From a virus (taxonomy: Duplodnaviria > Heunggongvirae > Uroviricota > Caudoviricetes), in IMG/VR virus record IMGVR_UViG_2778261515_000019, positions 1-38,450 of that record: 38,450 nt of DNA, one strand, 5' to 3'. How positions within the stretch are numbered: the stretch's first letter is position 1; each line of letters begins with the position of its first letter. The notes under the pieces are model-generated. The model ran no database searches. It saw nothing but the letters and a program-made list of their open reading frames with translations, and was not told the origin of the DNA. Position numbers and translations under genes: made by a program. Below are positions 1 through 24,399 of this stretch, in pieces.

Positions 1-351
1 ATGCGAGAGACAGTCGAAATTATGCGTTATCCCGTCACTCTTACACCCGCGCCGGAAGGCGGTTATATGGTTTCTTTTGTGGATATCCCTGAAGCGTTGA
101 CGCAGGGCGAAACTGTCGCTGAAGCGATGGAAGCGGCAAAAGATGCTTTACTGACCGCATTTGATTTTTATTTTGAAGATAACGAGCTTATCCCTTTACC
201 TTCGCCATTAAATAGTCACGATCACTTTATTGAAGTACCTTTGAGCGTCGCCTCTAAGGTATTGCTGTTAAATGCTTTTTTACAGTCAGAAATCACTCAG
301 CAAGAGTTAGCCAGGCGAATTGGCAAACCTAAATGTTGTAAACCCCAATAA
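1..351 (+). CDS. hicB: HicB-family antitoxin, C-terminally truncated (ORF ends inside predicted HTH, ...ITQQELARRIGKPK then 5 unrelated codons)
   Basis: N-terminal HicB/UPF0150-type sequence MRYPVTLTPAPEGGYMVSFVDIPEALTQGETVAEAMEAAKDAL; HTH-like ITQQELARRIG begins but the ORF stops 8 codons later; sequence character changes after ~337. Confidence 0.6.
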   Translation: MRETVEIMRYPVTLTPAPEGGYMVSFVDIPEALTQGETVAEAMEAAKDALLTAFDFYFEDNELIPLPSPLNSHDHFIEVPLSVASKVLLLNAFLQSEITQQELARRIGKPKCCKPQ

Positions 352-370
352 CTAAAATTTTTCCAATAAA

Positions 371-395
371 AAAGCCCCATCACAAGGACAGGGCT
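371..395 (-). terminator. Weak stem-loop plus T-tract (minus-strand sense) downstream of the 402..740 reading frame
   Basis: AGCCC...GGGCT stem with A-run on plus strand (T-run on minus strand). Confidence 0.3.
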
Positions 396-401
396 TAGAA
401 A

Positions 402-740
402 TCAATTACTTACGATGATACTTTCGCTTATCATTTTGTTGGTGATGATCTCCGGCAATGCTTCAAATGGTAGTGTTTCAGTGTAACCGTCTCGCATATC
501 ATCCCGACTAACAACACCACATTCATACTTAGTCTTTATGAGCTTCTCTAGCTTAGATGCATATTCCCCTTTACTGAATCGGAAAGACTTGACAAATGAT
601 TTAGGTTCTGGATCGGGGTCAGATAAAGCGAGTTTTCGGCACCCCGGTATTTGATACGCGTGTGAGATTTTAAAACGTGATCAGTGCAGTCCTAGCGCGG
701 TCGCTACGCGACTATTAACCCACTTCCCAGCCCTTACCAT
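402..740 (-). pseudogene. 112-codon reading frame interrupted by one in-frame TGA (codon 20); possible gene remnant or readthrough ORF
   Basis: ATG at 740..738, in-frame TGA at 683..681, frame stays open to TGA at 404..402; purine-rich stretch upstream of ATG; no similarity recognised. Confidence 0.25.
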
Positions 741-836
741 TACTGGATCTTTCCCTTCGTTAAAACGCGTTTTAGGCGCTTAGATTTTGCGTAAAACCAA
801 TAAATAAAATTACGCAAATTTAATGGAGGATAACCA

Positions 837-1394
837 ATGAAAGAAGAATTAACCCTTACAGAAATTTCCCGTTTATATGGCTATTCATTGAATGGTGGCG
901 GTAAGCGATGGTTAGAAAGGGGACTACCTTATAACACAAATACAAGACGTGTTCCGGTCAAGGAAGGTTGCGATTGGGTGCTAAAGAACATCATTAACCC
1001 GCTTAAACAAACTTCCATCAAAGAACAAATCGACGTAGAGAAATTACGCCGTGAGAGAGCATTAGCGGACGCAGCCGAACGAGAGAACCAGGAAGCAATG
1101 AATCTCCTGATTCCCGTCGGGTATGTGGAGCAGGAGCTAGCGGAATACTGCGGGAAAGTGAAGCAGACTATTTTGCAGATCGCCACAATCGACGCTTTAG
1201 AAATTCTTGAATCTGCCACTGACCAGAAAACATTAAAGAATAAGCTAAGGGAGATTATCGAGCGTCGTTTAAATGAAGTAGGGGACTTGTTCGAAAATGC
1301 AGATTTGGGAGAAGACGAGGAAGAAGAATTACCATTAATGGATGAACCGGAAGAACAAGAACCAGAAGAAGACGATGAATTTGATGTGTCTTAA
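837..1394 (+). CDS. Terminase small subunit-like DNA-binding protein (Nu1-type N-terminal HTH, acidic C-terminus)
   Basis: Strong RBS GGAGG; N-terminal HTH LTEISRLYGYS...WLERGLPY, GGGK and EKLRRE motifs reminiscent of lambda Nu1; Glu/Asp-rich tail. Confidence 0.45.
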   Translation: MKEELTLTEISRLYGYSLNGGGKRWLERGLPYNTNTRRVPVKEGCDWVLKNIINPLKQTSIKEQIDVEKLRRERALADAAERENQEAMNLLIPVGYVEQELAEYCGKVKQTILQIATIDALEILESATDQKTLKNKLREIIERRLNEVGDLFENADLGEDEEEELPLMDEPEEQEPEEDDEFDVS

Positions 1395-1490
1395 AAATTA
1401 GATACTAAATACATATGTGAAGGGTGTTGAACGGGTCAACGCCTACGGGGGAGAACATCCCCCGCTTAACTTTTAAGAGGATATAAAACT

Positions 1491-1775
1491 ATGGCTACTT
1501 TTATTACCTATGCTGTCATCATTACTATTCTGGCTGCTATCTCTGCTTATAAACTCGGAACCGAACCGAAAGAACGAGGCGAATTATTCTTAGGTGCGTT
1601 TGTTGCATTTGCTAGCCTTGCGTTAATTGTCGAAGGAATTTCTTATATTGTTGGCCTAGTTAGTATGACACTTTTTAACTTCCATCCAACTATTGCTATG
1701 CATTTGATGCTGACCGTACTTTGGGTATATTGCTTAATCGAATTTTTAACGTTTGTTTTCAAACAGACTAAATAA
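1491..1775 (+). CDS. Small integral membrane protein (about 3 predicted TM helices)
   Basis: RBS AAGAGG; hydrophobic segments ITYAVIITILAAISAY, LFLGAFVAFASLALIVEGI, LMLTVLWVYCLIEFLTFVF. Confidence 0.55.
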   Translation: MATFITYAVIITILAAISAYKLGTEPKERGELFLGAFVAFASLALIVEGISYIVGLVSMTLFNFHPTIAMHLMLTVLWVYCLIEFLTFVFKQTK

Positions 1776-1933
1776 TATTGTAATCTGCCTTTTCTCCTTA
1801 TGTGGTTTTAACAGGGAATTTTCGAAAGAGAGTTCCCGATTAAAAGCCATAAAACACATTCAGTACAGTGTTTTCATAGTCAGTGACTATACAACATAAA
1901 AACATAACAAGTATAGATTGAGTATTAATCCTC

Positions 1934-1959
1934 CCGCCCCGAAGGGGGCGGTTATTTTT
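1934..1959 (+). terminator. Rho-independent terminator
   Basis: CCGCCCC-GAAG-GGGGCGG stem-loop followed by TTATTTTT. Confidence 0.55.
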
Positions 1960-2036
1960 CTGGCTTTAAAGAATAATGTAGCATTATGTTCATTATAACC
2001 TCATCTTTGTTGTGCAAACCTAACCTAAACTTACTA

Positions 2037-2064
2037 GGGACTCTTCGGAGTCCCTTTTTTTTTT
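2037..2064. terminator. Terminator hairpin with UUCG-type tetraloop, abutting stop of minus-strand gene 2071..3072
   Basis: GGGACTC-TTCG-GAGTCCC followed by T10. Confidence 0.55.
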
Positions 2065-2070
2065 ATTGTC

Positions 2071-3072
2071 TTAAGCAACCAAACGAAGGGTAGGTCTTGC
2101 TTTCTTAATTTCATGTTTAATTTCTGGCTTAGTAAGTTTGCACAGTTCATCAATCGGCTGTAAGGTTGCTGGCGATCTACGTTGCGCGTACTTCTTATCT
2201 AAGCTAGCCCACAGATCCCGCGCTTCTTCTACTTCAACCAAAAGAATATTAGCTTGATGATAGAACTTAACCGCATCTTCCCACGTTTTAGCATTCTTGA
2301 TCTTAGTCTTCATGCTGTTAAATCGGCCTAGAAGCTGTTTTGCTTGTGCCTCTGCTTCTTTACGTGGGCGATCCCGTTCTTCCTGCTCTGCTTTCTCTTT
2401 GGCCTTAATCGCTTCCAGATTGGCTTTATATGCACAAACTTGATGGTCGTGGTCTTCAATACATGCTGGAACTTTAGGTTTTGTCACATAGAATTGAAAC
2501 ACAGTTTTTCCTAAATTGCCTTCCACATCGATAGGGAAGGTGTAGGATTTCATGTCGCTAAGTTCAACGCTGTTATCGTCGGTAGACACCAAAGCCAGAT
2601 TATAACGGCAATAGCTATTTTCTTTAATGCGGATCGTATAAACGTTTGATGTTTTCGGCGTACACTGAACAACATTACCAAAAGCGAAGACAGTAGCGAC
2701 ACCACCACGGCTAATCACAACCATAGCAACGCCTTTCTTCTCTTCATCGTAAAACCCACTAAGTTCATAACCAACCACAGAATAAACCAGACGATCACCA
2801 GTTTTATTGATGAAGCTGTTAATCATAGTATGTTCTTCTACCGTCAGCTTGATACCGTGTTTCATGATTTCTTTAATGACATTCTCAGAATCTTTAGCGC
2901 GGGGATTCTGAATAGAAAACAATTCCTGATAATAATCACCGCCGTTAAGATTATCGGTGAATTTGAAGTTTGCGGTAACTCCACCGTCAAAGGTGGAGGT
3001 CAGACGAACGTTTACCAGTGATTCAGTTTCTTCTTTGTTGAGTTTTTTGTTGTCGATTGCGTAAATGTTCAT
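2071..3072 (-). CDS. Hypothetical protein, 333 aa, globular N-terminal region plus charged C-terminal coiled-coil-like region
   Basis: Long ORF, 27-bp gap to upstream gene on same strand; KE-rich helical segment KEKAEQEERDRPRKEAEAQAKQ; no family recognised. Confidence 0.6.
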   Translation of the reverse strand: MNIYAIDNKKLNKEETESLVNVRLTSTFDGGVTANFKFTDNLNGGDYYQELFSIQNPRAKDSENVIKEIMKHGIKLTVEEHTMINSFINKTGDRLVYSVVGYELSGFYDEEKKGVAMVVISRGGVATVFAFGNVVQCTPKTSNVYTIRIKENSYCRYNLALVSTDDNSVELSDMKSYTFPIDVEGNLGKTVFQFYVTKPKVPACIEDHDHQVCAYKANLEAIKAKEKAEQEERDRPRKEAEAQAKQLLGRFNSMKTKIKNAKTWEDAVKFYHQANILLVEVEEARDLWASLDKKYAQRRSPATLQPIDELCKLTKPEIKHEIKKARPTLRLVA

Positions 3073-3099
3073 AGTAGTATTCCTCTTTTAAATTAAAAA

Positions 3100-4101
3100 T
3101 TAAGCTGCAAAATCAAGTAATTCGCGGTCCATCTCATCCATAGCCGGAATGGTTGGAACATATGGTTTATATCCTTCTTCTACATCAAGAAGGTTGTTTA
3201 AGCTGGCATCAGAAATATCACAAGAAACCACGGTTAACGCTGGTTTGATAATCGGCTGATCAACAGTAACCGCCTCCGGTGCTTCTTTTTCTTCTTTCGC
3301 TTCTTCCTGGGTAGCTGCCGGAACTACTGCTACCTTAACTTCCGGCGCTTTAACTTCTTTTGCTTCCAGTTCTTCTACACGGATTTCAAGAACTTCAATT
3401 TCTTTTTTCAGACTAATGTTTTCTTCCATCAGCATAGCGAATTTGCGTTCCATCTCAGCAAGACGTTGCTCAAAAGCACGATGCGCATCAGACAGAATCT
3501 GAATATCACGCTGCTGTAATTCTTCTTCGTAGTTGGAAACGGTTTTTTCTTTAGTGGTTTCTTTCCATACTGCCTTATCAACAGCGTTAACATTCAGTTT
3601 AGCTTTGTTGGAAACGAAGAAAGAAATATTGAATTTCTCACCGTGAGCACAATCAGACCATGCACCAACAACACTAGAAGCCAGAGCAAAGTTTTTAACT
3701 TTACCATTAACGAAACGGCCTTTAGCATCGCGGCGGGAAGCGTGGATCATGTTACCCCAGAGGCTACCAGCTTCATCTTGCAGGATAGACACTACATAGG
3801 ATTCGTCGCCGTTCTTGTAAGCGATAGCATATACTTCGCGCTGGTCTGGTTTAACCATTGCTTTCAAAGTAGCTTTCTTACGCTCTAAACCACGGTATTC
3901 TTTTTTCCAGTCGGAACCAGCATGATAGAGAGTGGTGTACAGAGAATCGATAGATTCTTCTTTATAAATATTAGTGCCAATAGTTAATTCGTCGGCTTCG
4001 TTGCTGCCATAGTTACGAATTTCGATATCTGCATCGTACTGATATTTTGCGGTGTCTGCGGTGTTGCTGTAAACGGTAATAGAGAAGTTATTTTGTTTCA
4101 T
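3100..4101 (-). CDS. Hypothetical protein, 333 aa, N-terminal globular domain, central coiled coil, acidic C-terminus
   Basis: RBS AGGAA upstream of ATG; heptad-like LAEMERKFAMLMEENISLKKEIEVLEIRVEELEAKE; same length as neighbour; no family recognised. Confidence 0.6.
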   Translation of the reverse strand: MKQNNFSITVYSNTADTAKYQYDADIEIRNYGSNEADELTIGTNIYKEESIDSLYTTLYHAGSDWKKEYRGLERKKATLKAMVKPDQREVYAIAYKNGDESYVVSILQDEAGSLWGNMIHASRRDAKGRFVNGKVKNFALASSVVGAWSDCAHGEKFNISFFVSNKAKLNVNAVDKAVWKETTKEKTVSNYEEELQQRDIQILSDAHRAFEQRLAEMERKFAMLMEENISLKKEIEVLEIRVEELEAKEVKAPEVKVAVVPAATQEEAKEEKEAPEAVTVDQPIIKPALTVVSCDISDASLNNLLDVEEGYKPYVPTIPAMDEMDRELLDFAA

Positions 4102-4202
4102 TGTAGTAATTCCTTATGTTAAGTAGAAGCCTCCTTGTTGCCGCAAGGGGGCTTTTTTATTGGTTAAAAGTTTCATAATGTAATTCTCAGTCAAAGTTGA
4201 TC

Positions 4203-4385
4203 TCACCAAACGGTAGCTTCAATCTTCACCTTGATTTCATATTTCTTTAAGAGTTTGTGGAAGGTTGATTTATCGATGCCTTCATTTTTAAACCACTCTT
4301 CAATCCTCACTCCCGGCGTTAGTTCAAAGTAGCGTTTTGCTTTTTCCAACATAATCTCGCGAGTAAATTTAACAGTTCTAGCCAT
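4203..4385 (-). CDS. Small HTH DNA-binding protein (60 aa from ATG at 4385; ORF track extends to 4421)
   Basis: RBS GAGGA 8 nt before ATG at 4385; HTH-like GIDKSTFHKLLKKYEI; first gene of minus-strand operon. Confidence 0.5.
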   Translation of the reverse strand: MARTVKFTREIMLEKAKRYFELTPGVRIEEWFKNEGIDKSTFHKLLKKYEIKVKIEATVW

Positions 4386-4484
4386 GTTACATCCTCTACA
4401 TTGTGGATTATTTTTTCTCATAAAAAGAGCTTTTCGCCCTTGATACTTCTATTTATAAAATGATTTTCAGAAAACCCTGTAAAA

Positions 4485-4506
4485 CCACTGTATATTCGAT
4501 CAGTGG
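4485..4506. promoter_or_regulatory. SOS-box-like palindrome (CTG-N10-CAG core) next to a promoter-like element for the minus-strand operon
   Basis: CCACTGTATATTCGATCAGTGG; left half ACTGTATAT matches the LexA consensus half-site as I recall it. Confidence 0.35.
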
Positions 4507-4569
4507 GAGCACGAATTGCTAAAGAGAAGATTAATAATTAATCAATTCGTGCAGTATTCAACCGAAAAA

Positions 4570-4591
4570 GCACTGTATATCTAACCAGTGC
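4570..4591. promoter_or_regulatory. Second SOS-box-like palindrome
   Basis: GCACTGTATATCTAACCAGTGC, same CACTG-N10-CAGTG architecture as 4485..4506. Confidence 0.3.
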
Positions 4592-4742
4592 CGTATTAAT
4601 TAACAGTGAATAAGGAGATTTTCAGAAGTGAACAATCATTTCTCACTTGTATTTAGTAGAGAGAAAATCTTGCTTATCATCTATATGGGGACTGTTTTGA
4701 AAATTTCAACCCCTACCAGTGAGAAAAAGTATAAAATAATCC

Positions 4743-4756
4743 TTGACAGTTGTCAA
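4743..4756. promoter_or_regulatory. Perfect 14-bp palindrome overlapping a -35-like hexamer
   Basis: TTGACAGTTGTCAA. Confidence 0.3.
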
Positions 4757-4957
4757 CACTCATGACCTAAGCGAGAAAAGGCTATCAAATTTTTTGTGCG
4801 AAAATGGCAAATAATGATTATCAACCTTTATAACCTATTATGGCACGGGGACCTTTTGACAATTTCTTTTAAATCATTAAGTTACAGCGATTTTTGATGA
4901 TTTTTTGGTTAAATAATATACAAGAATTTTCTATCAAAATATTTGAATGAATTTAAA

Positions 4958-5232
4958 GGTTTCCCCGCGATATCCCCACTTTAGAAGATGTATCCCCGTC
5001 ACCGTCCCCGCGTAAAATCCCCGTTTTGGAAGCAAAATCCCCCGGATTAGGGTAGTTTCCCCGCGATATCCCCGCGTAAAATCCCCGGTATTAGATGCGT
5101 ATTTTTATGTAAGTATATGATTTTAAATGCTTTCCCCGTGGTGTCCCCGTATCATCCCCACGTTATCCCCGACCTGTCCCCGTGGTATCCCTTCCCCGTC
5201 CCTTTCCCGTCCCCGTTTCAAAGTGGGGAAAC
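4958..5232. repeat. Iteron-like array of about 17 TCCCC(G) motifs, many spaced 10 to 11 bp
   Basis: Repeated units TTCCCCGCGATATCCCC and CCCCGCGTAAAATCCCC each occur twice; run TTTCCCCGTGGTGTCCCCGTATCATCCCCACGTTATCCCCGACCTGTCCCCGTGG; array bounded by GGTTTCCCC ... GGGGAAACC. Confidence 0.65.
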
Positions 5233-5269
5233 CAGTAATGACAGGGCTTAGAAGCGATCCAGACCTACA

Positions 5270-5310
5270 GACCAATATACCTACATACCATCAAACCAAT
5301 ATACCTACAA
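5270..5310. repeat. Direct repeat of 15 bp (ACCAATATACCTACA, two copies 11 bp apart)
   Basis: Exact duplication read directly. Confidence 0.45.
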
Positions 5311-5658
5311 AGATATTATGCGCCCTGCGGGGCGCGAGTAATCTGCTTCGAATCATTCAAGAAGGGATTTGTAATAGTGGTTACTAGATGATTCTAGATC
5401 ACTTTAATGATCATGAAAGGTATTGGTATCCCTTCGGGATTGCAACCTTCGGTTGCCAAATTGCTTCCTGATTATTATTTCTCCAAAAGAAAGATTCTTA
5501 TATTCTAAAGATACTTCTTCGTTTTGATGATGATTTAATCAAAATCTATGAAGGAGGCGAAGCCGACTGAATACCAATTCCTTTCAAATTAGACAAAAAT
5601 TTCTCGTTATAAATAATAGTGAACTTACTTTGATTCACTTTTTTAGAGGATTTCCACT

Positions 5659-6108
5659 ATGATCAATACTAAAACTCCTTTCATTCTTCTGGGTCTGAAC
5701 CATGATGATAATCTGGCTATGATGCATGTTTTCGCTAATCGTGGTTATAACATCATTCGTCATTCCGAAGACTCCAATTTCTCAACTGCTTTCTATGCTC
5801 TTAAACGTAATGGTCGCCCTACGGTGATCGTAGACTGCTTTACTGATGAAGGTCGTGAACAATACAACAACATTCCGGCAATTATTGTTCGTGATGACCT
5901 GCCGTTTGATGTTCGTGAATATGACGTTGATTTAGGCTCTTACTATGGGATCGCCGATCTTGACCAGATTATGGCTGATTATGGTAAACAACCCGCTAAG
6001 GAAGCCCAAGAACACGATGAAGACGACGAAGATGATGATTACACACCAATCGCGTTTTCTTCTCACAATAGCTTCTACGGCTACGATGAAGGCTTAGAAA
6101 TGCTGTAA
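5659..6108 (+). CDS. Hypothetical protein with strongly acidic C-terminal tract
   Basis: RBS GAGGA; 149 aa; EAQEHDEDDEDDDYTP acidic run. Confidence 0.55.
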   Translation: MINTKTPFILLGLNHDDNLAMMHVFANRGYNIIRHSEDSNFSTAFYALKRNGRPTVIVDCFTDEGREQYNNIPAIIVRDDLPFDVREYDVDLGSYYGIADLDQIMADYGKQPAKEAQEHDEDDEDDDYTPIAFSSHNSFYGYDEGLEML

Positions 6109-6130
6109 GTTAGGTCAACCCTTTGGCGTC

Positions 6131-6151
6131 TTGTCAAGGGGGTATTGACAA
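6131..6151. promoter_or_regulatory. Inverted repeat TTGTCAA-N7-TTGACAA upstream of gene 6230..6562, followed by further TTGACA-like hexamers
   Basis: TTGTCAAGGGGGTATTGACAA; additional TTGACAA at 6182. Confidence 0.3.
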
Positions 6152-6229
6152 AATTTTCTGGTTTTTTTATGATTATTGCACTTGACAATTTTGAACCTAT
6201 TTGACCTAGATTTGTAAAGAGGATGTAAC

Positions 6230-6562
6230 ATGAAAGAATTTACCATCACTAAATCCCTGTATGACTGGACTGTTAAAATCTCCAGCAAAACCGTTTCTGT
6301 AAGCCCTAGCCATGTAGAAAATGATTGGGGCGTATCCCGTGAAACTATCTCCCGTAGTATGCATGTTCCGTTTGATCTGATGTCCTTAACTGGTATTCAT
6401 GCAATGCTGGAAGTTCGCGAACAATTCGAAGCTGGTAATCACAATGCGACTCCAGTTAGCAATCACCTTCTTACTAATGAAGAACGTGAAATCATCGAAA
6501 ACTGGCGTTATGAATATGCGATTCCTTACTACGAAGAAGATCAGGTAGAAATCGATTGGTAA
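6230..6562 (+). CDS. Hypothetical protein, 110 aa
   Basis: RBS AGAGGA; clean ORF ending TAA; no family recognised. Confidence 0.55.
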   Translation: MKEFTITKSLYDWTVKISSKTVSVSPSHVENDWGVSRETISRSMHVPFDLMSLTGIHAMLEVREQFEAGNHNATPVSNHLLTNEEREIIENWRYEYAIPYYEEDQVEIDW

Positions 6563-6666
6563 TAAATTTCTATCATAAATAAAATTGTTCCGCGCGCCGT
6601 TGGCGTGTGGACAGTTAAAAACAGGAGGATTAAATCGCAAAACCGTTAATTAAGGGGAATCTTACT

Positions 6667-7518
6667 ATGAATACTGTTAAAACTATGAATACTGCACCGA
6701 CTTTCTTTGCTTCTCCGGTAGCTGCAAACGAAGATTATTCCGATGTTCGAATGACTTTGCGTGAAATTTCGGAATTTATTGGGGTACGTTTTGATAATAT
6801 CGAACGTAGTTTACATCGCCTTGTTAATCAAGGTGTTGTGAAACTCCCTCCAATGGAGGAAGTTAAAAACCACAGAAACCAGACAGTTAAAGATTATGTT
6901 TTTTCCGGTAAGCAAGGGCGATTGGATTCCATTGTTCTTATTGCTCAAAACGTACCTGAAATGACTCGTAAATTAGTAGAGCGTTGGGATTATCTCGAAA
7001 ATGAACTTTTAAAGAAAGAAGAAGAGAATAAAAGCCCGTTCCCAGATGCAAGCAAGATGACTAAGCTCGATTGGATGCGCGAAGCGGTTAAACTTGAAGA
7101 AGAAAAAGAACAACTGATTCAAGAAAAACAACAATTGGTTGATCTTCATATCCGTAAAGCCATCGACGCGCACAGTCTAACCCGCTTATTAGGCGAAAAA
7201 CGAGGCTCTACAAAGGTACAAATGATTCTGAAAGGGTTATGTACTGCTGGTGTTCTTGAGCGTCGTCTGGATGCTTCTGGTAAGCCTAACGGCTATGATC
7301 TGCTGCCTCCTGGCTATATGTTCGCTCGTATGTCGGCACACGGTCAGATCGAGTTCACTGCTGATGCTATTCCGCATCTCGTAAAACTCGGATTGCTTGA
7401 AGAAGAAAAGTCCGCAACTTTGAAATTGCCACAGCCGAATAACTCACGAGCAATCGTCAATAATACTGCTTTGCTGATTCGTCAGAATGCTGGATCACTG
7501 GAACACTTCGGACTGTGA
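6667..7518 (+). CDS. Phage regulatory protein (Rha/antirepressor-like N-terminal domain) with coiled-coil middle region
   Basis: RBS AAGGGGA; N-terminal MTLREISEFIGVRFDNIERSLHRLV resembles Rha-type winged-helix domain; ends with tandem stops TGATAA. Confidence 0.45.
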   Translation: MNTVKTMNTAPTFFASPVAANEDYSDVRMTLREISEFIGVRFDNIERSLHRLVNQGVVKLPPMEEVKNHRNQTVKDYVFSGKQGRLDSIVLIAQNVPEMTRKLVERWDYLENELLKKEEENKSPFPDASKMTKLDWMREAVKLEEEKEQLIQEKQQLVDLHIRKAIDAHSLTRLLGEKRGSTKVQMILKGLCTAGVLERRLDASGKPNGYDLLPPGYMFARMSAHGQIEFTADAIPHLVKLGLLEEEKSATLKLPQPNNSRAIVNNTALLIRQNAGSLEHFGL

Positions 7519-7526
7519 TAATTTTT

Positions 7527-7556
7527 GCCCCTGAATTTCAGGGGCTTTTTTGTTTT
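7527..7556 (+). terminator. Rho-independent terminator after the plus-strand early genes
   Basis: GCCCCTG-AATTT-CAGGGGC followed by TTTTTTGTTTT. Confidence 0.65.
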
Positions 7557-7563
7557 CTATAGG

Positions 7564-7596
7564 TATAAAAAAAGGCCAACCCCGAAGGATTGGCCT
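7564..7596 (-). terminator. Terminator for minus-strand gene 7603..7833
   Basis: AGGCCAA-CCCCGAAGGA-TTGGCCT with A-run on plus side (U-run in minus sense). Confidence 0.5.
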
Positions 7597-7602
7597 AGAG
7601 AA

Positions 7603-7833
7603 TCAAATTCCGGTAGCTTCTACCATTTCACCGTCAACCTGAACAAAGAATTTCAAATCAACTTTATGGAGTGATTTGTAGAATTGAGCAATTGAAATAC
7701 CGTGTTCACTCAATACTTGCTCTTTTTCAGCTTTACCTTTCGGTGCTTGATAGTACGCTTTTACAATCGCTGCCAGTTGTTCACGATCAAAACGGCAAGG
7801 ACGTCCGCGAGTAGCTTTAGTAGTCATAGTCAT
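7603..7833 (-). CDS. Small DNA-binding protein (AT-hook-like RGRP plus HTH)
   Basis: TRGRPCRF motif and HTH-like GISIAQFYKSLHK; RBS GGAGAAATGA context. Confidence 0.5.
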   Translation of the reverse strand: MTMTTKATRGRPCRFDREQLAAIVKAYYQAPKGKAEKEQVLSEHGISIAQFYKSLHKVDLKFFVQVDGEMVEATGI

Positions 7834-7861
7834 TTCTCCAAATTAAAGTGAATGTTCACCT

Positions 7862-8464
7862 TTATTTAGAGGATTTACATTTTATCGGAAAAAGTTCTCC
7901 ATCGTCAACGGTCATAAAGAACTCTGCCTTAATCCCGTACTTCTTCAACCGTGAATAGTATGTACCCCGACTTATATCAACCTTGCGAAGCACTTCAAAG
8001 AACCCTTTAGGATCGTTGTAATAGTGGCTATAACGCACGTTAGCGAGTTCAACGAATAGTTCCCTTGTATCACCATAGCCTTTCTTGAAAGCCTCGTTAC
8101 GATAGCGTGTAATTGCGTGATTCAATCTCTTCTGTTTCAACACTTCTCGGATCGGCTTCCACTGCAACCGATAGATAGGACCGTCATCCACTCGATAATA
8201 ACGCTTGATATCAAAATCAAACCAATCTCGGACTCTCTGGAACTCTGTATGTGATGTTCTATGCTTCTTAAAGAAGTTGTGAACGTCTGTATAACCATTA
8301 TCGCGGTAAAATTCTATTAAAATCTCTTTCGCTTCCTCACGACTAAATCCAGATGTTGTGTAGTCGGTTTTTAAATGCTTATGCTTAACTGGTAAACGAT
8401 ATTCATGATCGGTACAAGACAAGGCTAATTCTAATTCATCTCTTTGTTGCTGATTAATTAGCAT
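7862..8464 (-). CDS. DNA-binding protein with C-terminal resolvase/IS-type HTH
   Basis: 200 aa; C-terminal DISRGTYYSRLKKYGI HTH; divergent from terL. Confidence 0.5.
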   Translation of the reverse strand: MLINQQQRDELELALSCTDHEYRLPVKHKHLKTDYTTSGFSREEAKEILIEFYRDNGYTDVHNFFKKHRTSHTEFQRVRDWFDFDIKRYYRVDDGPIYRLQWKPIREVLKQKRLNHAITRYRNEAFKKGYGDTRELFVELANVRYSHYYNDPKGFFEVLRKVDISRGTYYSRLKKYGIKAEFFMTVDDGELFPIKCKSSK

Positions 8465-8549
8465 ACAACCCCCTTTAATTAATACCAGTATTTATCAAAA
8501 TATCAACAATTTAATAAATACCTTCATATTTCGTAATGAGGGTAATTAC

Positions 8550-10454
8550 ATGAAACTGATTTCAAATAAGGCAAAATTAAAAAAGATTCTCAGAAATATC
8601 TCTGCTGCAATTCGCCCACCTAAAGCCATGAAACCTAGCGAATGGGTAGAGGCTAATGTAGTTGCAACCGATGGTGTTAAAGCCGGATCGCTAATTAAAT
8701 TGCATCCCTTCCAACGTGGAATGATGGACGCGATCACCGAAGACCGTAGAAAAATTGTGTTTAAATGTTCGGCGCAGTTGGGTAAGACCATGATTCTTAA
8801 CGGAATTATCTTCCATCGGATCGCGAGTAACCCTACGAATATTGGGGTGTTGCAAAGTAACGTTAGGGAACTAAATTCTTGGATCGCTGGTAAGGTGAAG
8901 CCAGTATTAGAGGCAACCCCAGAATTAAAGGCGATGATCACCGACAAATCAGATCGCAATGCCGTTAACAACTCATCGATTATTCAGCTTCGTAACGGAT
9001 CATTCATGTATTTCATGTCGTTGAATAGTCCGTCACATCTTCGCGGTAAAACACTCCCTTTGATTATTCTTGATGAAGTTGATGCGGCTGATGAGTCAGA
9101 CGAAGGGAACCCGATCCAGCTAGCGGAACAACGCGCAACCACTTTCGGGGAAGATGCAAGGATCGTAATTGCTTCCACTCCAACCGCTCGTGATGGGGCG
9201 ATTAACCAACAATGGGAACTCTCGGATAAGAGAAAATATCATGTCGTTTGTCAGCATTGCGGACACCGACACGTAATGGAATGGAGTAACGTTTATTTCG
9301 ATTGGCATACGATTAACGGTAAGTCATTACCTAACCCAGATACAGCCGTTTACCGCTGTCCTGCATGTGAAACCGACTGGACCGAAGGGGATCGCCTACG
9401 TGCTGTTGCTAAGGGAGAATGGGTCGCCACCGAACCAAATGCGGAAGTAATCGGTTTTCATGCTAACCGCCTTATGTCTCCGTTTAGTTCTATCCGTGCG
9501 TGTGTGGTGGACTTTGCTGATAGCTACGCGAATATGTCCCTGGCAACGTTCTACAATACAGTCCTCGGTGAAACCTTCGATGATCTTAACGAAGACCGCA
9601 CAGCCGACGAATTAGAAACGCTGAAAACTGATATTAGACTAGACAATATTCCTGATGATGTACTGGCTCTGGTTGGTGGAGTTGACCAGCAAAAAGACCG
9701 TCTGGAATCTACCTTGCTGGGTATTTCTCGTAAAGGGCTATGCGTAGTTGATCACCGATCATTCTATGATGTGAACTGCGAACGCCACGAATCGCCAGCA
9801 TATGACCAGCTTTACAACTTCCTGAAAGCTAAATTCTATACCCGATCCGGTGAACGAATCCCGATGTTATCTGCTTTCGTGGACTCATCGAACGGACGAG
9901 CTACAAACGTGATCTATCGATTCTGTAGTCGGTGGCAAAATCTAACCGCCATTAAAGGCGCAAGCAATGTTGATGCACCAATCCTTCCGGTAAAAGACAC
10001 AAGAACGGGTGGTTTTACCCTTAAAATTCTGGGCGTAAACAACCTTAAAACGATGATCCGTGAAATGATTAACCGGAATTTGAGAGATGGCGATCCTCAC
10101 ACTGTCTTCCAGATTGGTGACGTTCCTGATGACTATTGCGAGCAATTGCTTTCTGAACAGTTGAAACGGCAGGGTAATACCACACGTTGGGTAAAAGTTG
10201 GTCAGCAACGAAACGAGGCTCTCGACTGCCTGGCTTATTCCTATGCTGCTTCTCGCCATGTACTCAATAAAATGTCATGGGAAAAACTCGAAGCCATCAA
10301 AGATAGTTTGAACCGTGAACCAGAAGAATCCGTAGAAGCTCCTAAATCGCAATCTGACGAGAAAATAGAAGAAACTAAGCCAATCACACGACCACAACGT
10401 CAAAACATCGCCAGACGCCCAAATAGAGGCCGTGGCTGGGTAACATCGTTCTAA
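8550..10454 (+). CDS. terL: Terminase large subunit, GpA (lambda A) family
   Basis: 634 aa; motifs LHPFQRGMMDAI, ILDEVD, NTVLGETF, IKGAS, RNEALDC align with lambda gpA as recalled; start of long plus-strand morphogenesis operon. Confidence 0.85.
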   Translation: MKLISNKAKLKKILRNISAAIRPPKAMKPSEWVEANVVATDGVKAGSLIKLHPFQRGMMDAITEDRRKIVFKCSAQLGKTMILNGIIFHRIASNPTNIGVLQSNVRELNSWIAGKVKPVLEATPELKAMITDKSDRNAVNNSSIIQLRNGSFMYFMSLNSPSHLRGKTLPLIILDEVDAADESDEGNPIQLAEQRATTFGEDARIVIASTPTARDGAINQQWELSDKRKYHVVCQHCGHRHVMEWSNVYFDWHTINGKSLPNPDTAVYRCPACETDWTEGDRLRAVAKGEWVATEPNAEVIGFHANRLMSPFSSIRACVVDFADSYANMSLATFYNTVLGETFDDLNEDRTADELETLKTDIRLDNIPDDVLALVGGVDQQKDRLESTLLGISRKGLCVVDHRSFYDVNCERHESPAYDQLYNFLKAKFYTRSGERIPMLSAFVDSSNGRATNVIYRFCSRWQNLTAIKGASNVDAPILPVKDTRTGGFTLKILGVNNLKTMIREMINRNLRDGDPHTVFQIGDVPDDYCEQLLSEQLKRQGNTTRWVKVGQQRNEALDCLAYSYAASRHVLNKMSWEKLEAIKDSLNREPEESVEAPKSQSDEKIEETKPITRPQRQNIARRPNRGRGWVTSF

Positions 10455-10526
10455 TAACTCGCCGTCCTTCGGGGCGGCTTACTCCTAAATATTGTTAATC
10501 CAATAACAATTAAATAAGGGGTGATT

Positions 10527-11021
10527 ATGAGTTTAGAACTAATTCCCTTAGTAATTCGTAAAGGCGAAAAAATCACGCTGGCGAATGAAGAGGGTGTAAC
10601 AATTCAGGTAGGAAATAGTAAAGGTATCATTTATCAGGTTGATGATACTCCGGCTAATCACGAGATTAAAACCTTAGATTTTGCCGAGGGTAAATATACC
10701 ATCGTAACCACTTTGGAAGAAGAACTGGTATCAATGCAGGAATTAACTGTATTGCCAGTATTCGCCAAACAATCCAAAAAAGAACATCTGCGGGAGACTA
10801 TCGCCAAAATCGAGCAAGTTATTTTCGCCCGTTTATCTGGGGACGAAGCCGCATTATCTCAAATGACCGTGAAAGGGAATACTTTCGCCTATGAGTCATT
10901 AGGTGTTCTCCAGCAATTAAAGACTGATTATGAACGTCAACTGTCTAAATTAATTCAAGCCGAACGACGTAAACAGGGAATTAGCCCGATTAAAAATATC
11001 AAATTACGTCTTACGCGATAA
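10527..11021 (+). CDS. Head-tail joining or head-completion protein (position-based; gpW position)
   Basis: Between terL and portal; RBS AAGGGGTG before ATG at 10527 (track ORF starts at upstream GTG 10521). Confidence 0.4.
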   Translation: MSLELIPLVIRKGEKITLANEEGVTIQVGNSKGIIYQVDDTPANHEIKTLDFAEGKYTIVTTLEEELVSMQELTVLPVFAKQSKKEHLRETIAKIEQVIFARLSGDEAALSQMTVKGNTFAYESLGVLQQLKTDYERQLSKLIQAERRKQGISPIKNIKLRLTR

Positions 11022-11031
11022 GGGGTAAATC

Positions 11032-12543
11032 ATGTTTAATCTTTTTCGACGCAATAAGGCGGTAGAAACTCCAGTTAAAACTAATCACCGCCAGCAACAA
11101 CAAAAAATCTTTATCGACAAACAAGTAGAAAAATTCCAGAAAGATTTGTCTAAGCGTTCTTTGGGCTTAGTTGGTGATCGCATTGATGGATCGCTTCAAC
11201 AAGATACTATCACAGGAACCTTCAATAAGGCTCTCAAATCGAACGGTAAACGCCTTTATGATCAGGGTCGTACTCTGGCTATAAACAATGCTGTAGGTAA
11301 GCGATACAAGCAGTATATCGTTGACCAAGTTGTTGGTACGGGGCTTGATCCGAAGCCGTCAATCGTTAAATCAAATGGCAAACTTGACACCGCACTGAAT
11401 AAGCAGATCGAGAATGCTTTCTGGAAGTGGGCGCAGAGTGCTAAACGCTTCTCTCGCAACGGTCGCTTTAACTTCCGTGAAATGCTGGCAATGGCAGAAT
11501 CTGAACGTGTTCAGGGTGGAGAATGCTTCATCGTTTTAACCAAAGAAAACAATGAGTTACAAGTTTCTATTCTGTCTGCTGATAGGTGCGACTGGTCGCT
11601 TAGTCGTGAAATAAGCAAAGACCGCGCTATCTATCAGGGGATCGAGTATGACGTAGAAACAATGCGCCCTGTTGCATACTGGTTTAGAAAAATCAATCTA
11701 CTGACTCAGACCTACACTGGCGAAAATTATCGCGTAGATGCTTCGCAAGTGTGTCATTACTATCAGCCCTTGTGCGCCGAGAGTTTGCGCGGCGTGACCG
11801 ACTTCCTACCAGTGATTAAGGATATTGCGCATCAAGAAGCGTTCCGCGAAGCTGTACTGGTCCAGAAACGAATTTCAGCTAGTAGCATGGCGTTCATCGA
11901 GCGTCCGAAAGATTCTGGTGACGATTTTGATACTGGTGAAGATGATGAACAATATCAAGCGCCGGAAGTTATTCACGATTTCGCGCCAGGTACTATTCAG
12001 GAATTACCGGAAGGGGCAACGATCAAGAGTATTCAATCCACGCAAAGCGGCGATGATTTCAATTCCTTTAACGCTGGTATGTTCACTAGCATAGCAATGG
12101 GTCTTGGCGTGTTCAATCAGGGCTTAACTGGTGATACTAGCCAAATCAACTACAGCGCCGCGCGTTTCGGTGAACTACTTCAACGTAACCGTGTTAAATC
12201 GCTACAAAACAAATTGATTGAAACAGTGGTATTGCCAATTTTTGAAGCATATCTACGCCATTATTCCGCGCGTGGTATTGTTCCGATTCGTATTACTGCA
12301 ATCCCGCATATTATCGAGAACACTACTATTATTCGTCCGCGTTTTGAGTCCGTCGATGTTATTAAAGATGTGAACGCTGATATTGCTTTAATTGATAAAG
12401 GACTTAAATCACGTACTGCTGTTATTTTGGAACGTGGCGACGATCCAGAAAAGGTATTTTCAGAGATCAGGTCTGAATCCAGTGCACTAAATATTATCGT
12501 TAATGGCGAGGGTGAAGAAAAAAATTCCCCAGCCGATCCCTAA
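11032..12543 (+). CDS. Portal protein (lambda gpB-like)
   Basis: 503 aa immediately after terL and connector gene; size and position typical of portal. Confidence 0.75.
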   Translation: MFNLFRRNKAVETPVKTNHRQQQQKIFIDKQVEKFQKDLSKRSLGLVGDRIDGSLQQDTITGTFNKALKSNGKRLYDQGRTLAINNAVGKRYKQYIVDQVVGTGLDPKPSIVKSNGKLDTALNKQIENAFWKWAQSAKRFSRNGRFNFREMLAMAESERVQGGECFIVLTKENNELQVSILSADRCDWSLSREISKDRAIYQGIEYDVETMRPVAYWFRKINLLTQTYTGENYRVDASQVCHYYQPLCAESLRGVTDFLPVIKDIAHQEAFREAVLVQKRISASSMAFIERPKDSGDDFDTGEDDEQYQAPEVIHDFAPGTIQELPEGATIKSIQSTQSGDDFNSFNAGMFTSIAMGLGVFNQGLTGDTSQINYSAARFGELLQRNRVKSLQNKLIETVVLPIFEAYLRHYSARGIVPIRITAIPHIIENTTIIRPRFESVDVIKDVNADIALIDKGLKSRTAVILERGDDPEKVFSEIRSESSALNIIVNGEGEEKNSPADP

Positions 12544-12588
12544 TAACCAACGGGGGCGCAATGCCCCCAATTAATTAAAGGTGATTAA

Positions 12589-14598
12589 ATGCTTAAATTT
12601 CGCCGCGATCTTAACGGTTACGGTGGAGTTATTAATGAAGGGCATAACGATCAATACGAATTTGAAATTGCTTTCTCAAGTACACAGCCTTATCAGCGCC
12701 AATTTTGGGATGAGCAAAATCAAGAAATGGTGGTATTAGATGAAATTCTGGTACATACACCGGAAGCGGTTGATCTGTCTCGTCTGAATAATAACGCTCC
12801 GTTGCTGTTCAATCATAATTTCGATAATCACATTGGTGTAGTCTGCGACGCTCGAATCGATGCGGATAACGTAGGCCGTGCTCTGGTTAAATTCTCTAAG
12901 CATGGCACTTTGGCTAATGATATTCGCAATAAAGTCATTGAAGGTACGATGGAAAAAATTTCTGTCGGTTATGACATTAAAGAATATCACATCGACTACA
13001 CCAAAGGGCAATTGATTGTTACTAAGTGGGCGCCTTTTGAAATTTCATTTGTGACGGTTCCCGCAGACGATTCGGTCGGTTTAAATCGCTCTCTAAATAC
13101 TATCACAGTTAATTTGGGGGCTAAACGAGATATGACTAAAGAACAAATCGAAGAAATCAAAGAAGAACAAGAATCAGCTCAGGTTGAAGAAACTCCGGTA
13201 GAAGAAAATAAAGAATCGGAAGTTGAAGAAACTCAAGAGCGCCAAGTTGAAGAGAATAAAGAAGATGAAAATCTCGAAGACGGAAAAGACGCTAAACATC
13301 CTGAAAGTGTTGATGATGATAGTTCAACTGTTCGGGAAACAGAAGAAGTAAAAGAAGAACGTGAAGCCGCTCCGGTTGAAGAAGAAAAAACCGAAGAAGT
13401 GGCTGAACGTTCCGAAGAAGACGAAGAAGAAATCCGAGCAATTGCGCGGGAACTAAATATTGATGACTCTGAATTAGCACGCGCATTGGCAATTAAAGAC
13501 ATGACGCCGGAAGCATTCCGCACTAAGGCACTAAATAATCTCGTCAATGCTCAACGTAATAACGAACAAATTAAGGACTCTAAAATGGAAAAAACTTTTG
13601 ACCTGAACAACGTAATTCGCTCTCTGGTAGATGGTGCTGCTCTGGGTGCTAACGAAGCTGAATATTCCGCTATGGCTGCTGGTGCTGCAATGCAGCGTGG
13701 TCGTGCTGCTCGCGGTGGCTCTGTATTCGTTCCGGCTGCTGCTCTGCGTGCTGCTTCCGAAGGTAACACCAAAGCTACTCTGACCGCTGTAACCGACGAA
13801 AAACTGCTGACTGAATCCTACATCGAAATGCTGCTTCCTGCTTCGTGTCTGGGTCGTCTGGGCGTGACCGTCCTGTCTGGTCTGAATGCTCCGATTGCTG
13901 TACCGAAAATGACTGCTTCCAGCGTTGATGCTTTCGGTTTCGTTGATGAAAACGGTGCTGCACCGGAAAGCAAAGCTGAATTTACAAACGTGAAAATGGC
14001 TCCGAAAACTTTTGCTGGTGGCAACCCGATCAGCCGTCAGTCTCTGAAAACTGTTCCGAATATTGCTACCCTGATCACTGATCACATTAACAAAGCTGTT
14101 CGTATCAAACTGGAACAACTGATTCTGTCTGACAAAGCTAACGAACGTGGTCCGAAAGGTCTGGTTAAGCAACTGGTAGACGCTAACCGCGTTACTAAGA
14201 AAACTGCTTTCTCTTACAAAGACTTCCTGAAAGAAATTGCAGCACTGACCGACGCTGGCGTTCCTGCTCAGGCGATCAAGTTCGCTATGAGTGGTGCAAC
14301 TGCTGCTGAACTGGAATCTACCCCGAAATCCGATCGTGGTGACGCTCAAGGCTTCATTATGGAAAACGGCAAACTGGCTGGTTACGATGTAGTTACTTCT
14401 GGCGTTATTCCGGCAGACCACATCGTTCTGGGTGACTTCTCCGGTATCATGATCGGTGAATGGGGTGGTCTGGAACTGGATATGGACGACACCACTTACC
14501 GCGCACAGTCTGCTATCGTTCCGCGTATCTGGGTAGACCTGGACTTCACCGTAGTTCAGCCGGAAGCTCTGAAAGTTCTGAAAATGGGCGAAGAGTGA
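12589..14598 (+). CDS. Prohead protease - acidic linker - scaffold-like coiled coil - HK97-fold major capsid protein, fused in one 669-aa ORF
   Basis: N-terminus has U35-type prohead protease motifs PLLFNHNFDNHIGVV and ISVGY; residues about 180-300 Glu-rich; C-terminal about 300 aa Ala/Gly-rich with capsid-like LSDKANERGPKGLV; optimal codons. Confidence 0.7.
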   Translation: MLKFRRDLNGYGGVINEGHNDQYEFEIAFSSTQPYQRQFWDEQNQEMVVLDEILVHTPEAVDLSRLNNNAPLLFNHNFDNHIGVVCDARIDADNVGRALVKFSKHGTLANDIRNKVIEGTMEKISVGYDIKEYHIDYTKGQLIVTKWAPFEISFVTVPADDSVGLNRSLNTITVNLGAKRDMTKEQIEEIKEEQESAQVEETPVEENKESEVEETQERQVEENKEDENLEDGKDAKHPESVDDDSSTVRETEEVKEEREAAPVEEEKTEEVAERSEEDEEEIRAIARELNIDDSELARALAIKDMTPEAFRTKALNNLVNAQRNNEQIKDSKMEKTFDLNNVIRSLVDGAALGANEAEYSAMAAGAAMQRGRAARGGSVFVPAAALRAASEGNTKATLTAVTDEKLLTESYIEMLLPASCLGRLGVTVLSGLNAPIAVPKMTASSVDAFGFVDENGAAPESKAEFTNVKMAPKTFAGGNPISRQSLKTVPNIATLITDHINKAVRIKLEQLILSDKANERGPKGLVKQLVDANRVTKKTAFSYKDFLKEIAALTDAGVPAQAIKFAMSGATAAELESTPKSDRGDAQGFIMENGKLAGYDVVTSGVIPADHIVLGDFSGIMIGEWGGLELDMDDTTYRAQSAIVPRIWVDLDFTVVQPEALKVLKMGEE

Positions 14599-14685
14599 AA
14601 TAACGAAGAATTGCCGGAAGAAATTCCGGTAGTTACGGCGAAAGCCACAGCTAAAAAGGTGGGACGTCCACCGAAAGCAAAATAA
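14599..14685 (+). other. In-frame 28-codon extension after the capsid TGA stop (candidate readthrough peptide NNEELPEEIPVVTAKATAKKVGRPPKAK)
   Basis: Frame open from TGA (14596-98) to TAA (14683-85); 24-nt block GTTACGGCGAAAGCCACAGCTAAA identical to the block after the tail-tube gene. Confidence 0.3.
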
Positions 14686-14690
14686 TAATT

Positions 14691-14716
14691 AGCCCTGCCT
14701 AACGGTGGGGCTTTTT
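14691..14716 (+). terminator. Rho-independent terminator (copy 1 of duplicated module)
   Basis: AGCCCTGCC-TAAC-GGTGGGGCT followed by TTTTTTG. Confidence 0.7.
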
Positions 14717-14747
14717 TGTATGTAAATACTCCATAAAGGGGGTAACT

Positions 14748-15038
14748 ATGTTCAAATTATCAGAATCACAATTAAATCGAATGTTTAAAAGTGCTCCTGT
14801 ATTTTCGGTGGAAGGTGGTAAATCAATTCGTGCTTATCATGAAATTACTACTACCGACGAACAAGGGGTAATGACAGAGACAGAATTTCTATTTTGTCGT
14901 GAGGGAGACTTAAAGCAAGGTGATATTGTCATTGTAGAAAATCAGCGTTTCAAAGTTCAATACGTTAAGCGCAATGGTGATAATACTTCTGATTGCTTTA
15001 TTACTCTGGCAGGGGGTACACATGCTCGCTACCGTTAA
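14748..15038 (+). CDS. Head-tail connector/adaptor-position protein
   Basis: RBS AAGGGGGT; 96 aa; position after capsid gene. Confidence 0.45.
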   Translation: MFKLSESQLNRMFKSAPVFSVEGGKSIRAYHEITTTDEQGVMTETEFLFCREGDLKQGDIVIVENQRFKVQYVKRNGDNTSDCFITLAGGTHARYR

Positions 15039-24397: not shown

Positions 24398-24399
24398 CT

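What the first reader, a model, noticed from the sequence alone, without database searches (positions are those of the whole stretch)
1..400. hicB reading frame ends abruptly inside its DNA-binding helix: possible insertion junction
The HicB-like ORF is colinear with enterobacterial HicB up to ...ITQQELARRIGKPK, then diverges into 5 codons and a stop where the HTH should continue. Composition changes at about position 337. This is consistent with the phage-like element having inserted into (or recombined with) a hicAB locus, leaving a hicA toxin partner upstream without a full antitoxin.
Basis: partly seen in the sequence, partly recalled or inferred. Interest (0 to 1): 0.5.

Follow-up and report, generated by a model that had tools for sequence, protein, structure and literature searches.

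The report
Prophage inserted into the hicB antitoxin gene
The hicB antitoxin gene of E. coli is cut in two here by a 38-kb prophage that inserted itself with a large serine recombinase, an ordinary kind of phage-host junction at a site I found described in no paper.

Summary
Window 22-333 encodes E. coli HicB residues 1-104, identical to K-12. Five foreign codons (CCKPQ) and a stop follow at 334-351.

The cause is site-specific integration of a prophage of about 38.2 kb. It has siphovirus-type structural genes and fills the rest of the window. Its large serine recombinase is encoded at 35396-37090 (-).

A contig 100% identical to the last 9 kb of the window continues past the window end. It runs through 42 nt of phage DNA, the same AAACCTAAA core, the intact last 34 hicB codons, and then ydcR.

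The same junction occurs in 37 of 5,426 complete E. coli genomes. NCBI annotates both hicB halves there as pseudogenes, with hicA upstream. Sister phages with an 87% identical recombinase gene split ycdX instead. Comparing the junction types places the crossover at the AA at window 325-326.

The cut removes the recognition helix and the dimerisation strand of HicB but keeps the domain that neutralises HicA. hicA is annotated as an intact gene in 27 of 35 lysogens.

I found no free phage, no attP form and no paper on this site. This is a new member of a known kind, of modest interest.

The parts
22..333 (+). hicB 5' part, codons 1-104 of 138. Window 1-21 is an in-frame upstream ATG extension used by some annotations.
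   Evidence: Identical to K-12 HicB residues 1-104. Pfam HicB_lk_antitox, 33.4 bits against a cut-off of 27. PGAP calls the equivalent stretch 'hicB, incomplete, missing C-terminus' in lysogens.
325..333 (+). Core AAACCTAAA, shared by attL, attB and attR. The inferred crossover dinucleotide AA is at 325-326, inside codon K102.
   Evidence: attL/attB/attR comparison. The ycdX-type junctions share only GGAA. The curA junction shares only AAAC. The overlap of the three is AA. The best symmetry centre of the reconstructed attP falls on the same AA.
334..351 (+). Phage-derived tail of the truncated frame: TGT TGT AAA CCC CAA TAA, reading CCKPQ and a stop.
   Evidence: The sequence is identical in other lysogens.
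327..371 (+). Right (P') arm of the phage attachment site. It includes ACCTAAA, which re-encodes hicB codons 102-104.
   Evidence: Conserved in all lysogens, whatever gene follows beyond position 413. Homologous to the P' arm of the ycdX-type phages.
372..396 (-). Hairpin followed by a T-run, a terminator-like site for leftward phage transcription, placed just inside attL.
   Evidence: 10-pair stem and T tail on the minus strand. Conserved in both the hicB-type and ycdX-type prophages.
326..38450 (.). Prophage body, about 38.2 kb in total; the last 43 nt lie beyond the window. Genes include TerS 837-1394, TerL 8550-10454, portal 11032-12543, protease-capsid fusion 12589-14598, long tail fibre 16365-19979, adhesin 20679-21185, tape measure 21920-24349, tail tip 26079-29855, endolysin 31510-31863 and UvsW-type helicase 31895-33394 (-).
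   Evidence: PHROGs and Pfam matches. Colinear with the annotated prophage of ETEC1738.
35396..37090 (-). Large serine recombinase (integrase): 564-aa ORF from TTG, 559 aa from the ATG at 37075.
   Evidence: Pfam Resolvase (55.8 bits), Recombinase (32.1) and Zn_ribbon_recom (39.7). N-terminal YSYIRFSSMKQ motif and a four-Cys ribbon are visible in the translation. It is the only recombinase annotated in the related prophage apart from an IS1 transposase.
38064..38450 (-). Last phage gene (128 aa, unknown function). Its start codon is the last base triplet of the window. attR and the hicB 3' end follow 43 nt later.
   Evidence: phrog_14908. Position relative to attR in L003, L006 and L015.

Best explanation
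A temperate tailed phage integrated into the chromosomal hicB gene by site-specific recombination, catalysed by its own large serine recombinase (window 35396-37090, minus strand).

The host site (attB) lies in hicB codons 101-104 (GGC AAA CCT AAA). The phage site (attP) carries the look-alike GG(G/C)AAACCTAAA. Strand exchange most likely occurs at the AA at window 325-326.

Window 1-326 is therefore host DNA and the rest is prophage. The phage arm happens to re-encode K102-P103-K104, then adds CCKPQ and a stop. The last 34 codons of hicB are displaced 38 kb away, next to ydcR and just beyond the window end.

Inferred consequence. The lysogen makes HicB(1-104)+5. [quoted passage not shown] It lacks the recognition helix of the HTH and the following beta-strand through which E. 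coli HicB dimerises. HicA should still be neutralised, but HicB can no longer repress the hicAB P2 promoter. Precise excision by the same enzyme would rebuild an intact hicB.
For: Shown:
- The junction and its partner. attL is in the window. attR is in a contig 100% identical to window 29396-38450 and is followed by an intact hicB 3' end and ydcR. The same layout is seen in complete genomes.
- Joining the two halves in silico gives the 138-aa K-12 HicB.
- The recombinase has all three Pfam domains of large serine recombinases, and no tyrosine integrase is annotated in the related prophage.
- The identity between the att sites is only 9-12 bp.
- The same junction is in 37 of 5,426 genomes, with prophage variants whose recombinase genes are 90-99% identical.
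- Sister prophages with 87% identical recombinase genes and near-identical attP arms split ycdX.
- The prophage carries a full set of packaging, head, tail and lysis genes.

Inferred:
- Crossover at AA, from the overlap of the three junction cores and from attP symmetry.
- Retained toxin neutralisation. HicA is bound by helix alpha-1 of the N-terminal domain independently of the DNA-binding domain (PMC10865869). A Y. pestis HicB3 lacking its C-terminal domain still forms a complex with HicA3, and E. coli HicB dimerises through a beta-strand that follows the HTH (PMC11594946).
- hicA is annotated as an intact gene in 27 of 35 lysogens. In two of them it carries the same protein accession as K-12.
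Against: - No excised or free form of this phage was found: no attP in IMG/VR or JGI metagenome contigs and no related genome among 50,697 phage records.
- No recombination directionality factor was identified.
- This copy carries a 1.7-kb IS between the recombinase and helicase genes, which might impair it.
- 8 of 35 lysogens have a frameshifted hicA, against 195 of 5,391 other genomes. This could mean the truncated antitoxin is not fully adequate. The comparison is not corrected for shared ancestry.
- Neutralisation by, and stability of, HicB(1-104)+5 are untested.
Confidence: 0.9

Rival explanations
1. The prophage is a fixed, no longer excisable remnant. On this reading hicB is simply a dead pseudogene in this lineage and the junction has no ongoing biology.
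For: No attP or free phage was found in any collection searched. This copy carries an IS1595-family element with lnu(C). Relatives carry IS1 insertions, one of them in the recombinase gene. No repressor or replication module was recognised.
Against: The recombinase ORF is full length with its motifs intact. The morphogenesis and lysis genes are all open. The hicB 3' fragment encodes the same 34 residues as K-12. The junction occurs with several prophage variants (recombinase genes 90-99% identical), which points to repeated recent integrations. The IS lies between genes and has a clean 8-bp target duplication.
Confidence: 0.25
2. The integration acts as a reversible switch or counter-defence aimed at the HicAB toxin-antitoxin module. 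In one version, removing the HicB DNA-binding domain raises antitoxin output and disarms HicA. In the other, it destabilises the antitoxin and primes HicA against superinfecting phages.
For: The cut separates the neutralising and regulatory domains of HicB almost exactly. HicA modules have been proposed as anti-phage defences (PMC10865869). hicA-null alleles are about 8 times commoner among lysogens. Serine-integrase prophages that split genes and restore them on excision are known (SPbeta in spsM, PMC5499854).
Against: The sister phages target ycdX, a phosphatase gene unrelated to defence. Site choice therefore looks like sequence opportunism by the integrase. The enrichment is not corrected for phylogeny. 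No expression or phenotype data exist.
Confidence: 0.1
3. The truncation comes from a non-phage event, such as a natural short hicB allele, a deletion, or an illegitimate recombination next to an unrelated island.
For: The composition shift is weak. Some database records name the short protein simply 'HicB family protein'.
Against: Both halves of hicB flank the element exactly and share a core. The element encodes a serine integrase. Homologous att arms occur at a second target gene.
Confidence: 0.02

Closest known systems
SPbeta prophage and its serine integrase SprA in Bacillus subtilis spsM (PMC5499854); by my own recollection also the skin element in sigK and Listeria phages in comK
   Same: A prophage with a large serine recombinase sits inside a protein-coding gene. 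The att identity is short, and precise excision would rebuild the gene.
   Different: Here the host is Gram-negative and the target is a toxin-antitoxin antitoxin gene. No directionality factor (SprB equivalent) was identified. There is no evidence for host-programmed excision. The recombinase is only distantly related: no NCBIfam match reaches its cut-off.
E. coli K-12 HicAB module (HicB structures 6HPB, 6HPC, 6U0I)
   Same: The window protein is identical to K-12 HicB over residues 1-104. hicA lies upstream in relatives.
   Different: It lacks residues 105-138, which include the HTH recognition helix, the later helices and the dimerising beta-strand. It carries a foreign CCKPQ tail.
Sister E. 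coli prophages integrated in ycdX, for example strain PigCaeca_2
   Same: Same gene order at the integrase end. The recombinase gene is 87% identical. The attP arms and the terminator hairpin are near-identical. These phages also split an ORF.
   Different: The attB is different (GGAA core in ycdX) and the P' arm diverges in its inner half.
Serine recombinases of sequenced phages: Burkholderia phage Bcep176 gp53 and the YbcK-type recombinase of lambdoid coliphages (e.g. Perceval, 4A7)
   Same: Same three-domain architecture. These are the best matches among 50,697 phage records.
   Different: Only about 30% amino-acid identity over about 82-84% of the length. Their integration sites were not examined here.

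Membership tests
HicB antitoxin (type II toxin-antitoxin, HTH class) | N-terminal partial RNase H / HicB-like domain that binds HicA | tested here: met
   Pfam PF15919, 33.4 bits against a cut-off of 27, residues 10-74 of the 116-aa ORF. 100% identical to K-12 HicB residues 1-104.
HicB antitoxin (type II toxin-antitoxin, HTH class) | Complete C-terminal HTH DNA-binding and dimerisation domain | tested here: not met
   Full-length HicB matches HTH_3 at residues 88-134. The window protein stops at residue 104 and gives no HTH_3 match. It is a truncated product of a split gene, not a full member.
HicB antitoxin (type II toxin-antitoxin, HTH class) | hicA toxin gene immediately upstream in one operon | tested here: met
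   hicA is outside the window. It is present upstream in all 35 lysogens listed: annotated as an intact gene in 27 and, judging by the same annotation label and shortened match, frameshifted in 8, of which one (PI7) was inspected directly.
Large serine recombinase (phage serine integrase) | Resolvase-type catalytic domain with a serine nucleophile, plus Recombinase domain and zinc ribbon | tested here: met
   PF00239 (55.8 bits), PF07508 (32.1 bits) and PF13408 (39.7 bits), all above their cut-offs. The YSYIRFSSMKQ motif and the CxxC...C...C ribbon are visible in the translation.
Large serine recombinase (phage serine integrase) | Short att sites with minimal attP/attB identity around a 2-bp crossover, and no long duplicated core | tested here: met
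   The shared core is 9 bp (12 bp in one attP variant). Three target types overlap only at AA. The reconstructed attP has imperfect dyad symmetry centred on that AA.
Large serine recombinase (phage serine integrase) | Demonstrated attP x attB recombination, with excision dependent on a directionality factor | not testable with these tools
   No attP-containing sequence was found and no directionality factor was recognised.
Gene-splitting prophage that acts as a regulatory switch ('active lysogeny') | The prophage interrupts an ORF, and joining the flanks restores it exactly | tested here: met
   Window 22-326 joined to the attR-side sequence of L015 gives the 138-aa K-12 HicB.
Gene-splitting prophage that acts as a regulatory switch ('active lysogeny') | Excision under a host-relevant condition without lysis, restoring gene function | not testable with these tools
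   Needs culture experiments. I do not file the element under this family.

The most novel reading that the evidence does not exclude
The phage family has evolved to target the antitoxin gene of a chromosomal HicAB module. By cutting HicB between its toxin-binding and operator-binding domains, integration would rewire the module. It might disarm a HicA-based abortive-infection defence, or turn it into a superinfection barrier or a prophage-retention device. Excision would reset it. The roughly 8-fold excess of hicA-null hosts among lysogens would then reflect a real fitness interaction.
Probability: 0.1. Interest if true: 0.6.

Novelty: new member of a known kind. Interest (0 to 1): 0.3.

Why it matters
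- It adds hicB, and ycdX for the sister phages, to the list of E. coli and Shigella prophage attachment sites. It also identifies a family of serine-integrase coliphages with no close relative among sequenced phages.
- Serine integrases with defined short att sites are useful genome-engineering tools. Here two natural target sites and one secondary target site are available for closely related enzymes.
- For annotation, the short 'HicB family protein' found on hundreds of contigs should be read as the left half of a split gene.
- The lysogens are natural HicB DNA-binding-domain deletion mutants. They could be used to test how much HicB autoregulation matters in vivo.

Tried and rejected
- Predicted attP in IMG/VR, two patterns: no match. 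A pattern shared by attL and attP found only three prophage predictions that begin inside hicB.
- Predicted attP in JGI metagenome contigs: no match.
- Megablast of the whole element against 50,697 phage records: only the tail-fibre and helicase modules and the IS matched, and no record covered more than 13% of either half of the element used as query.
- Recombinase protein against one genome per species (GTDB): no relative confirmed. This search finds close relatives only.
- Papers on hicB or ycdX as a prophage site, or on serine-recombinase prophages in E. coli: nothing relevant. The hicB mentions in the LF82 prophage paper concern a phage-borne hicAB.
- The primary HicB papers (Manav 2019; Turnbull and Gerdes 2017) are not held. 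I relied on a review and on Gerdes 2024.
- Displaced hicB 3' end inside the window: absent.
- Rfam scan of the window: no hit.
- Composition as evidence for the junction: too gradual to use.
- I did not run structure prediction. Full-length HicB cannot be submitted, and a single-sequence model of the fragment would add little.

Full report
**1. The observation**

Window 1-351 is an open reading frame. From the start used by RefSeq (window 22) it is identical to E. coli K-12 HicB for residues 1-104, ending ...ELARRIGKPK. It then reads CCKPQ and a stop, where K-12 HicB continues for 34 more residues. In more than 5,200 complete E. coli genomes the match to the window stops at position 333, so divergence starts at 334. 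Pfam places the HTH_3 domain of intact HicB at residues 88-134. The window protein keeps the HicB-like N-terminal domain but no longer matches HTH_3.

**2. What interrupts the gene**

In strain ETEC1738, which is 96.9% identical over window 1-700, the order is yncJ, hicA, hicB 5' part, a prophage of about 36 kb, hicB 3' part (120 nt as annotated), ydcR. NCBI annotates both hicB pieces as incomplete pseudogenes. The window is colinear with that prophage. It encodes:
- small and large terminase subunits, portal, a protease-capsid fusion and major tail proteins;
- a long tail fibre with its adhesin, tape measure, distal tail and tail-tip proteins;
- an endolysin, a UvsW-type helicase and a Rha/Ant-like regulator.

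Near the right end, at 35396-37090 on the minus strand, is a large serine recombinase with Resolvase, Recombinase and zinc-ribbon domains. Apart from an IS1 transposase, no other recombinase is annotated in the related prophage.

**3. The far end**

The window stops at the start codon of the last phage gene (38064-38450, minus strand). The hicB 3' end is not inside the window. A look-up of the exact recombinase protein returned a contig (L015, Logan assembly of SRR10586223) that is 100.000% identical to window 29396-38450. That contig continues with 42 nt of phage DNA, then AAACCTAAA, then the last 34 codons of hicB, which encode the K-12 residues, and then ydcR. Joining window 22-326 to that sequence rebuilds the 138-aa K-12 HicB. 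The prophage is therefore about 38.2 kb.

**4. The attachment sites and the crossover**

attL, attB and attR share only AAACCTAAA, or GGCAAACCTAAA in a phage variant. That is typical of serine integrases and unlike the longer cores of most tyrosine integrases.

The recombinase gene occurs in 57 complete E. coli genomes. About 30 copies are 90-99% identical to the window, and every one of these I inspected lies at hicB. About 24 full-length copies are 87-88% identical. In the one of these I inspected (PigCaeca_2) the prophage splits ycdX. The attP arms of the two groups are nearly identical. At ycdX the identity between attL and attR is only GGAA.

One draft genome with exactly the same recombinase protein has its right end joined to curA, through GGGAAAC|TTAAAGG. 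The only dinucleotide common to the three cores is the AA that follows GG(G/C), at window 325-326. The best dyad-symmetry centre of the reconstructed attP falls on the same AA. I infer that strand exchange occurs there. Codons K102-P103-K104 are then re-encoded by phage DNA. This step is inference, not demonstration.

**5. How common it is**

The junction is present in 37 of 5,426 complete E. coli genomes. The exact truncated protein is recorded on 592 contigs (116-aa form) and 23 contigs (109-aa form), some labelled Shigella sonnei. I found no free or circular form. No attP was found in IMG/VR or JGI metagenome contigs. No related genome was found among 50,697 phage records. The nearest phage recombinases are only about 30% identical. 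I found no paper naming hicB or ycdX as a prophage site.

**6. Consequence for HicAB (inferred)**

According to the literature read here:
- HicB represses promoter P2 through its C-terminal HTH, while P1 is constitutive (PMC10865869).
- E. coli HicB dimerises through a beta-strand that follows the HTH.
- A Y. pestis HicB3 lacking its C-terminal domain still forms a complex with HicA3 (PMC11594946).

The lysogen's HicB(1-104)+CCKPQ should therefore still neutralise HicA, but be monomeric and unable to repress P2.

Consistent with this, hicA is annotated as an intact gene in 27 of 35 listed lysogens, and two of them carry the same protein accession as K-12. The other 8 are annotated 'mRNA interferase' and give a match about 22 nt shorter. 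In PI7, the one I inspected, this is a frameshifted hicA with a 22-bp deletion. That allele is present in 203 of 5,426 genomes overall. This gives 8 of 35 lysogens against 195 of 5,391 others (odds ratio 7.9, Fisher p = 3e-5). The comparison is not corrected for shared ancestry. It may mean that integration is tolerated better without an active toxin, or it may only reflect host lineage.

**7. Comparison with known systems, and verdict**

The arrangement works like the known serine-integrase prophages that split a host gene and can restore it, such as SPbeta and SprA in spsM (PMC5499854). Two features are met: the ORF is interrupted, and it is restored exactly in silico. Regulated excision and a directionality factor could not be tested, so I do not file it as a regulatory switch.

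This is a new member of a known kind, at a site and with an integrase lineage that I found described nowhere. Its interest is modest unless the interaction with the toxin proves real.

**8. Other things seen**

- An IS1595-family element carrying lnu(C) lies at 33602-35326. It has an 8-bp target duplication, is 99.3% identical to Streptococcus elements, and is absent from all 5,426 complete E. coli genomes.
- The tail-fibre and helicase genes are 84-86% identical at the DNA level to those of RB49-like lytic phages.
- A stretch of about 1.2 kb without convincing ORFs (about 4422-5658) holds two SOS-box-like palindromes and phased repeat arrays.

Noticed in passing
window 33602-35326: A 1,725-bp IS1595-family element with about 25-bp imperfect terminal inverted repeats and an 8-bp target duplication (TTAAATTA). 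It carries a transposase (34201-35244, minus) and lnu(C), a lincosamide nucleotidyltransferase (NCBIfam 380 bits, cut-off 300). It is 99.3% identical to elements of Streptococcus gallolyticus and S. lutetiensis. It sits between the recombinase and helicase genes. It is absent from all 5,426 complete E. coli genomes but present in a few draft assemblies (L014, L015).
   Followed up: yes
window 16365-21185 and 31895-33394: The distal two-thirds of the long tail fibre gene is about 86% identical at the DNA level to gp37 of RB49-like (Krischvirus) lytic phages, and a gp38-type adhesin gene follows. The UvsW-type helicase gene is about 84% identical to their uvsW. This points to fairly recent module exchange between a temperate phage with siphovirus-type structural genes and T4-like lytic phages.
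   Followed up: partly
window 4422-5658: About 1.2 kb without a convincing ORF. It holds two SOS-box-like palindromes, CACTGTATATTCGATCAGTG (4486-4505) and CACTGTATATCTAACCAGTG (4571-4590); none were expected in shuffles. They lie upstream of a divergent 72-aa ORF (4203-4421, minus). At least 15 TCCCCG/ATCCCC motifs at roughly 11-bp phasing lie in 4950-5230, and an 8-bp periodic array lies at 5260-5307. This may be a LexA-controlled switch region together with an origin or packaging site.
   Followed up: partly
L012:401-555 (hicA of lysogen PI7); outside the window: A 22-bp deletion between TGCG repeats frameshifts hicA. The allele appears in 8 of 35 hicB lysogens (inspected in one; inferred from annotation and match length in the rest) against 195 of 5,391 other complete genomes (odds ratio 7.9, not corrected for phylogeny).
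   Followed up: partly
L005:7975-8060 and L011:6380-6600 (strain PigCaeca_2): A sister prophage whose recombinase gene is 87% identical and whose attP arms are near-identical splits ycdX (zinc-binding phosphatase) between ghrA and ycdY. The attL/attR identity there is only GGAA. About 24 complete genomes carry a full-length recombinase gene of this 87-88% class; only this one was inspected.
   Followed up: partly
L016:4640-4710 (GCA_043715605.1): A prophage encoding exactly the window's recombinase protein has its right end joined to the 3' part of curA, through GGGAAAC|TTAAAGGTTGC, instead of to hicB. This is either integration at a secondary site or a deletion from attR to a look-alike site 11 kb away. 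No complete genome has this junction.
   Followed up: partly
window 402-600: No intact ORF here. The stretch matches DNA annotated as a GIY-YIG nuclease gene next to attL in another lysogen (H2). In other lysogens a different gene follows position 413. It is probably the remnant of a homing-endonuclease gene.
   Followed up: no
window 15209-15299 (minus strand): ARAGORN calls a 91-nt tRNA-Gln inside the ORF 14974-15444. The Rfam gathering scan gives no tRNA there, so the call is probably spurious.
   Followed up: no
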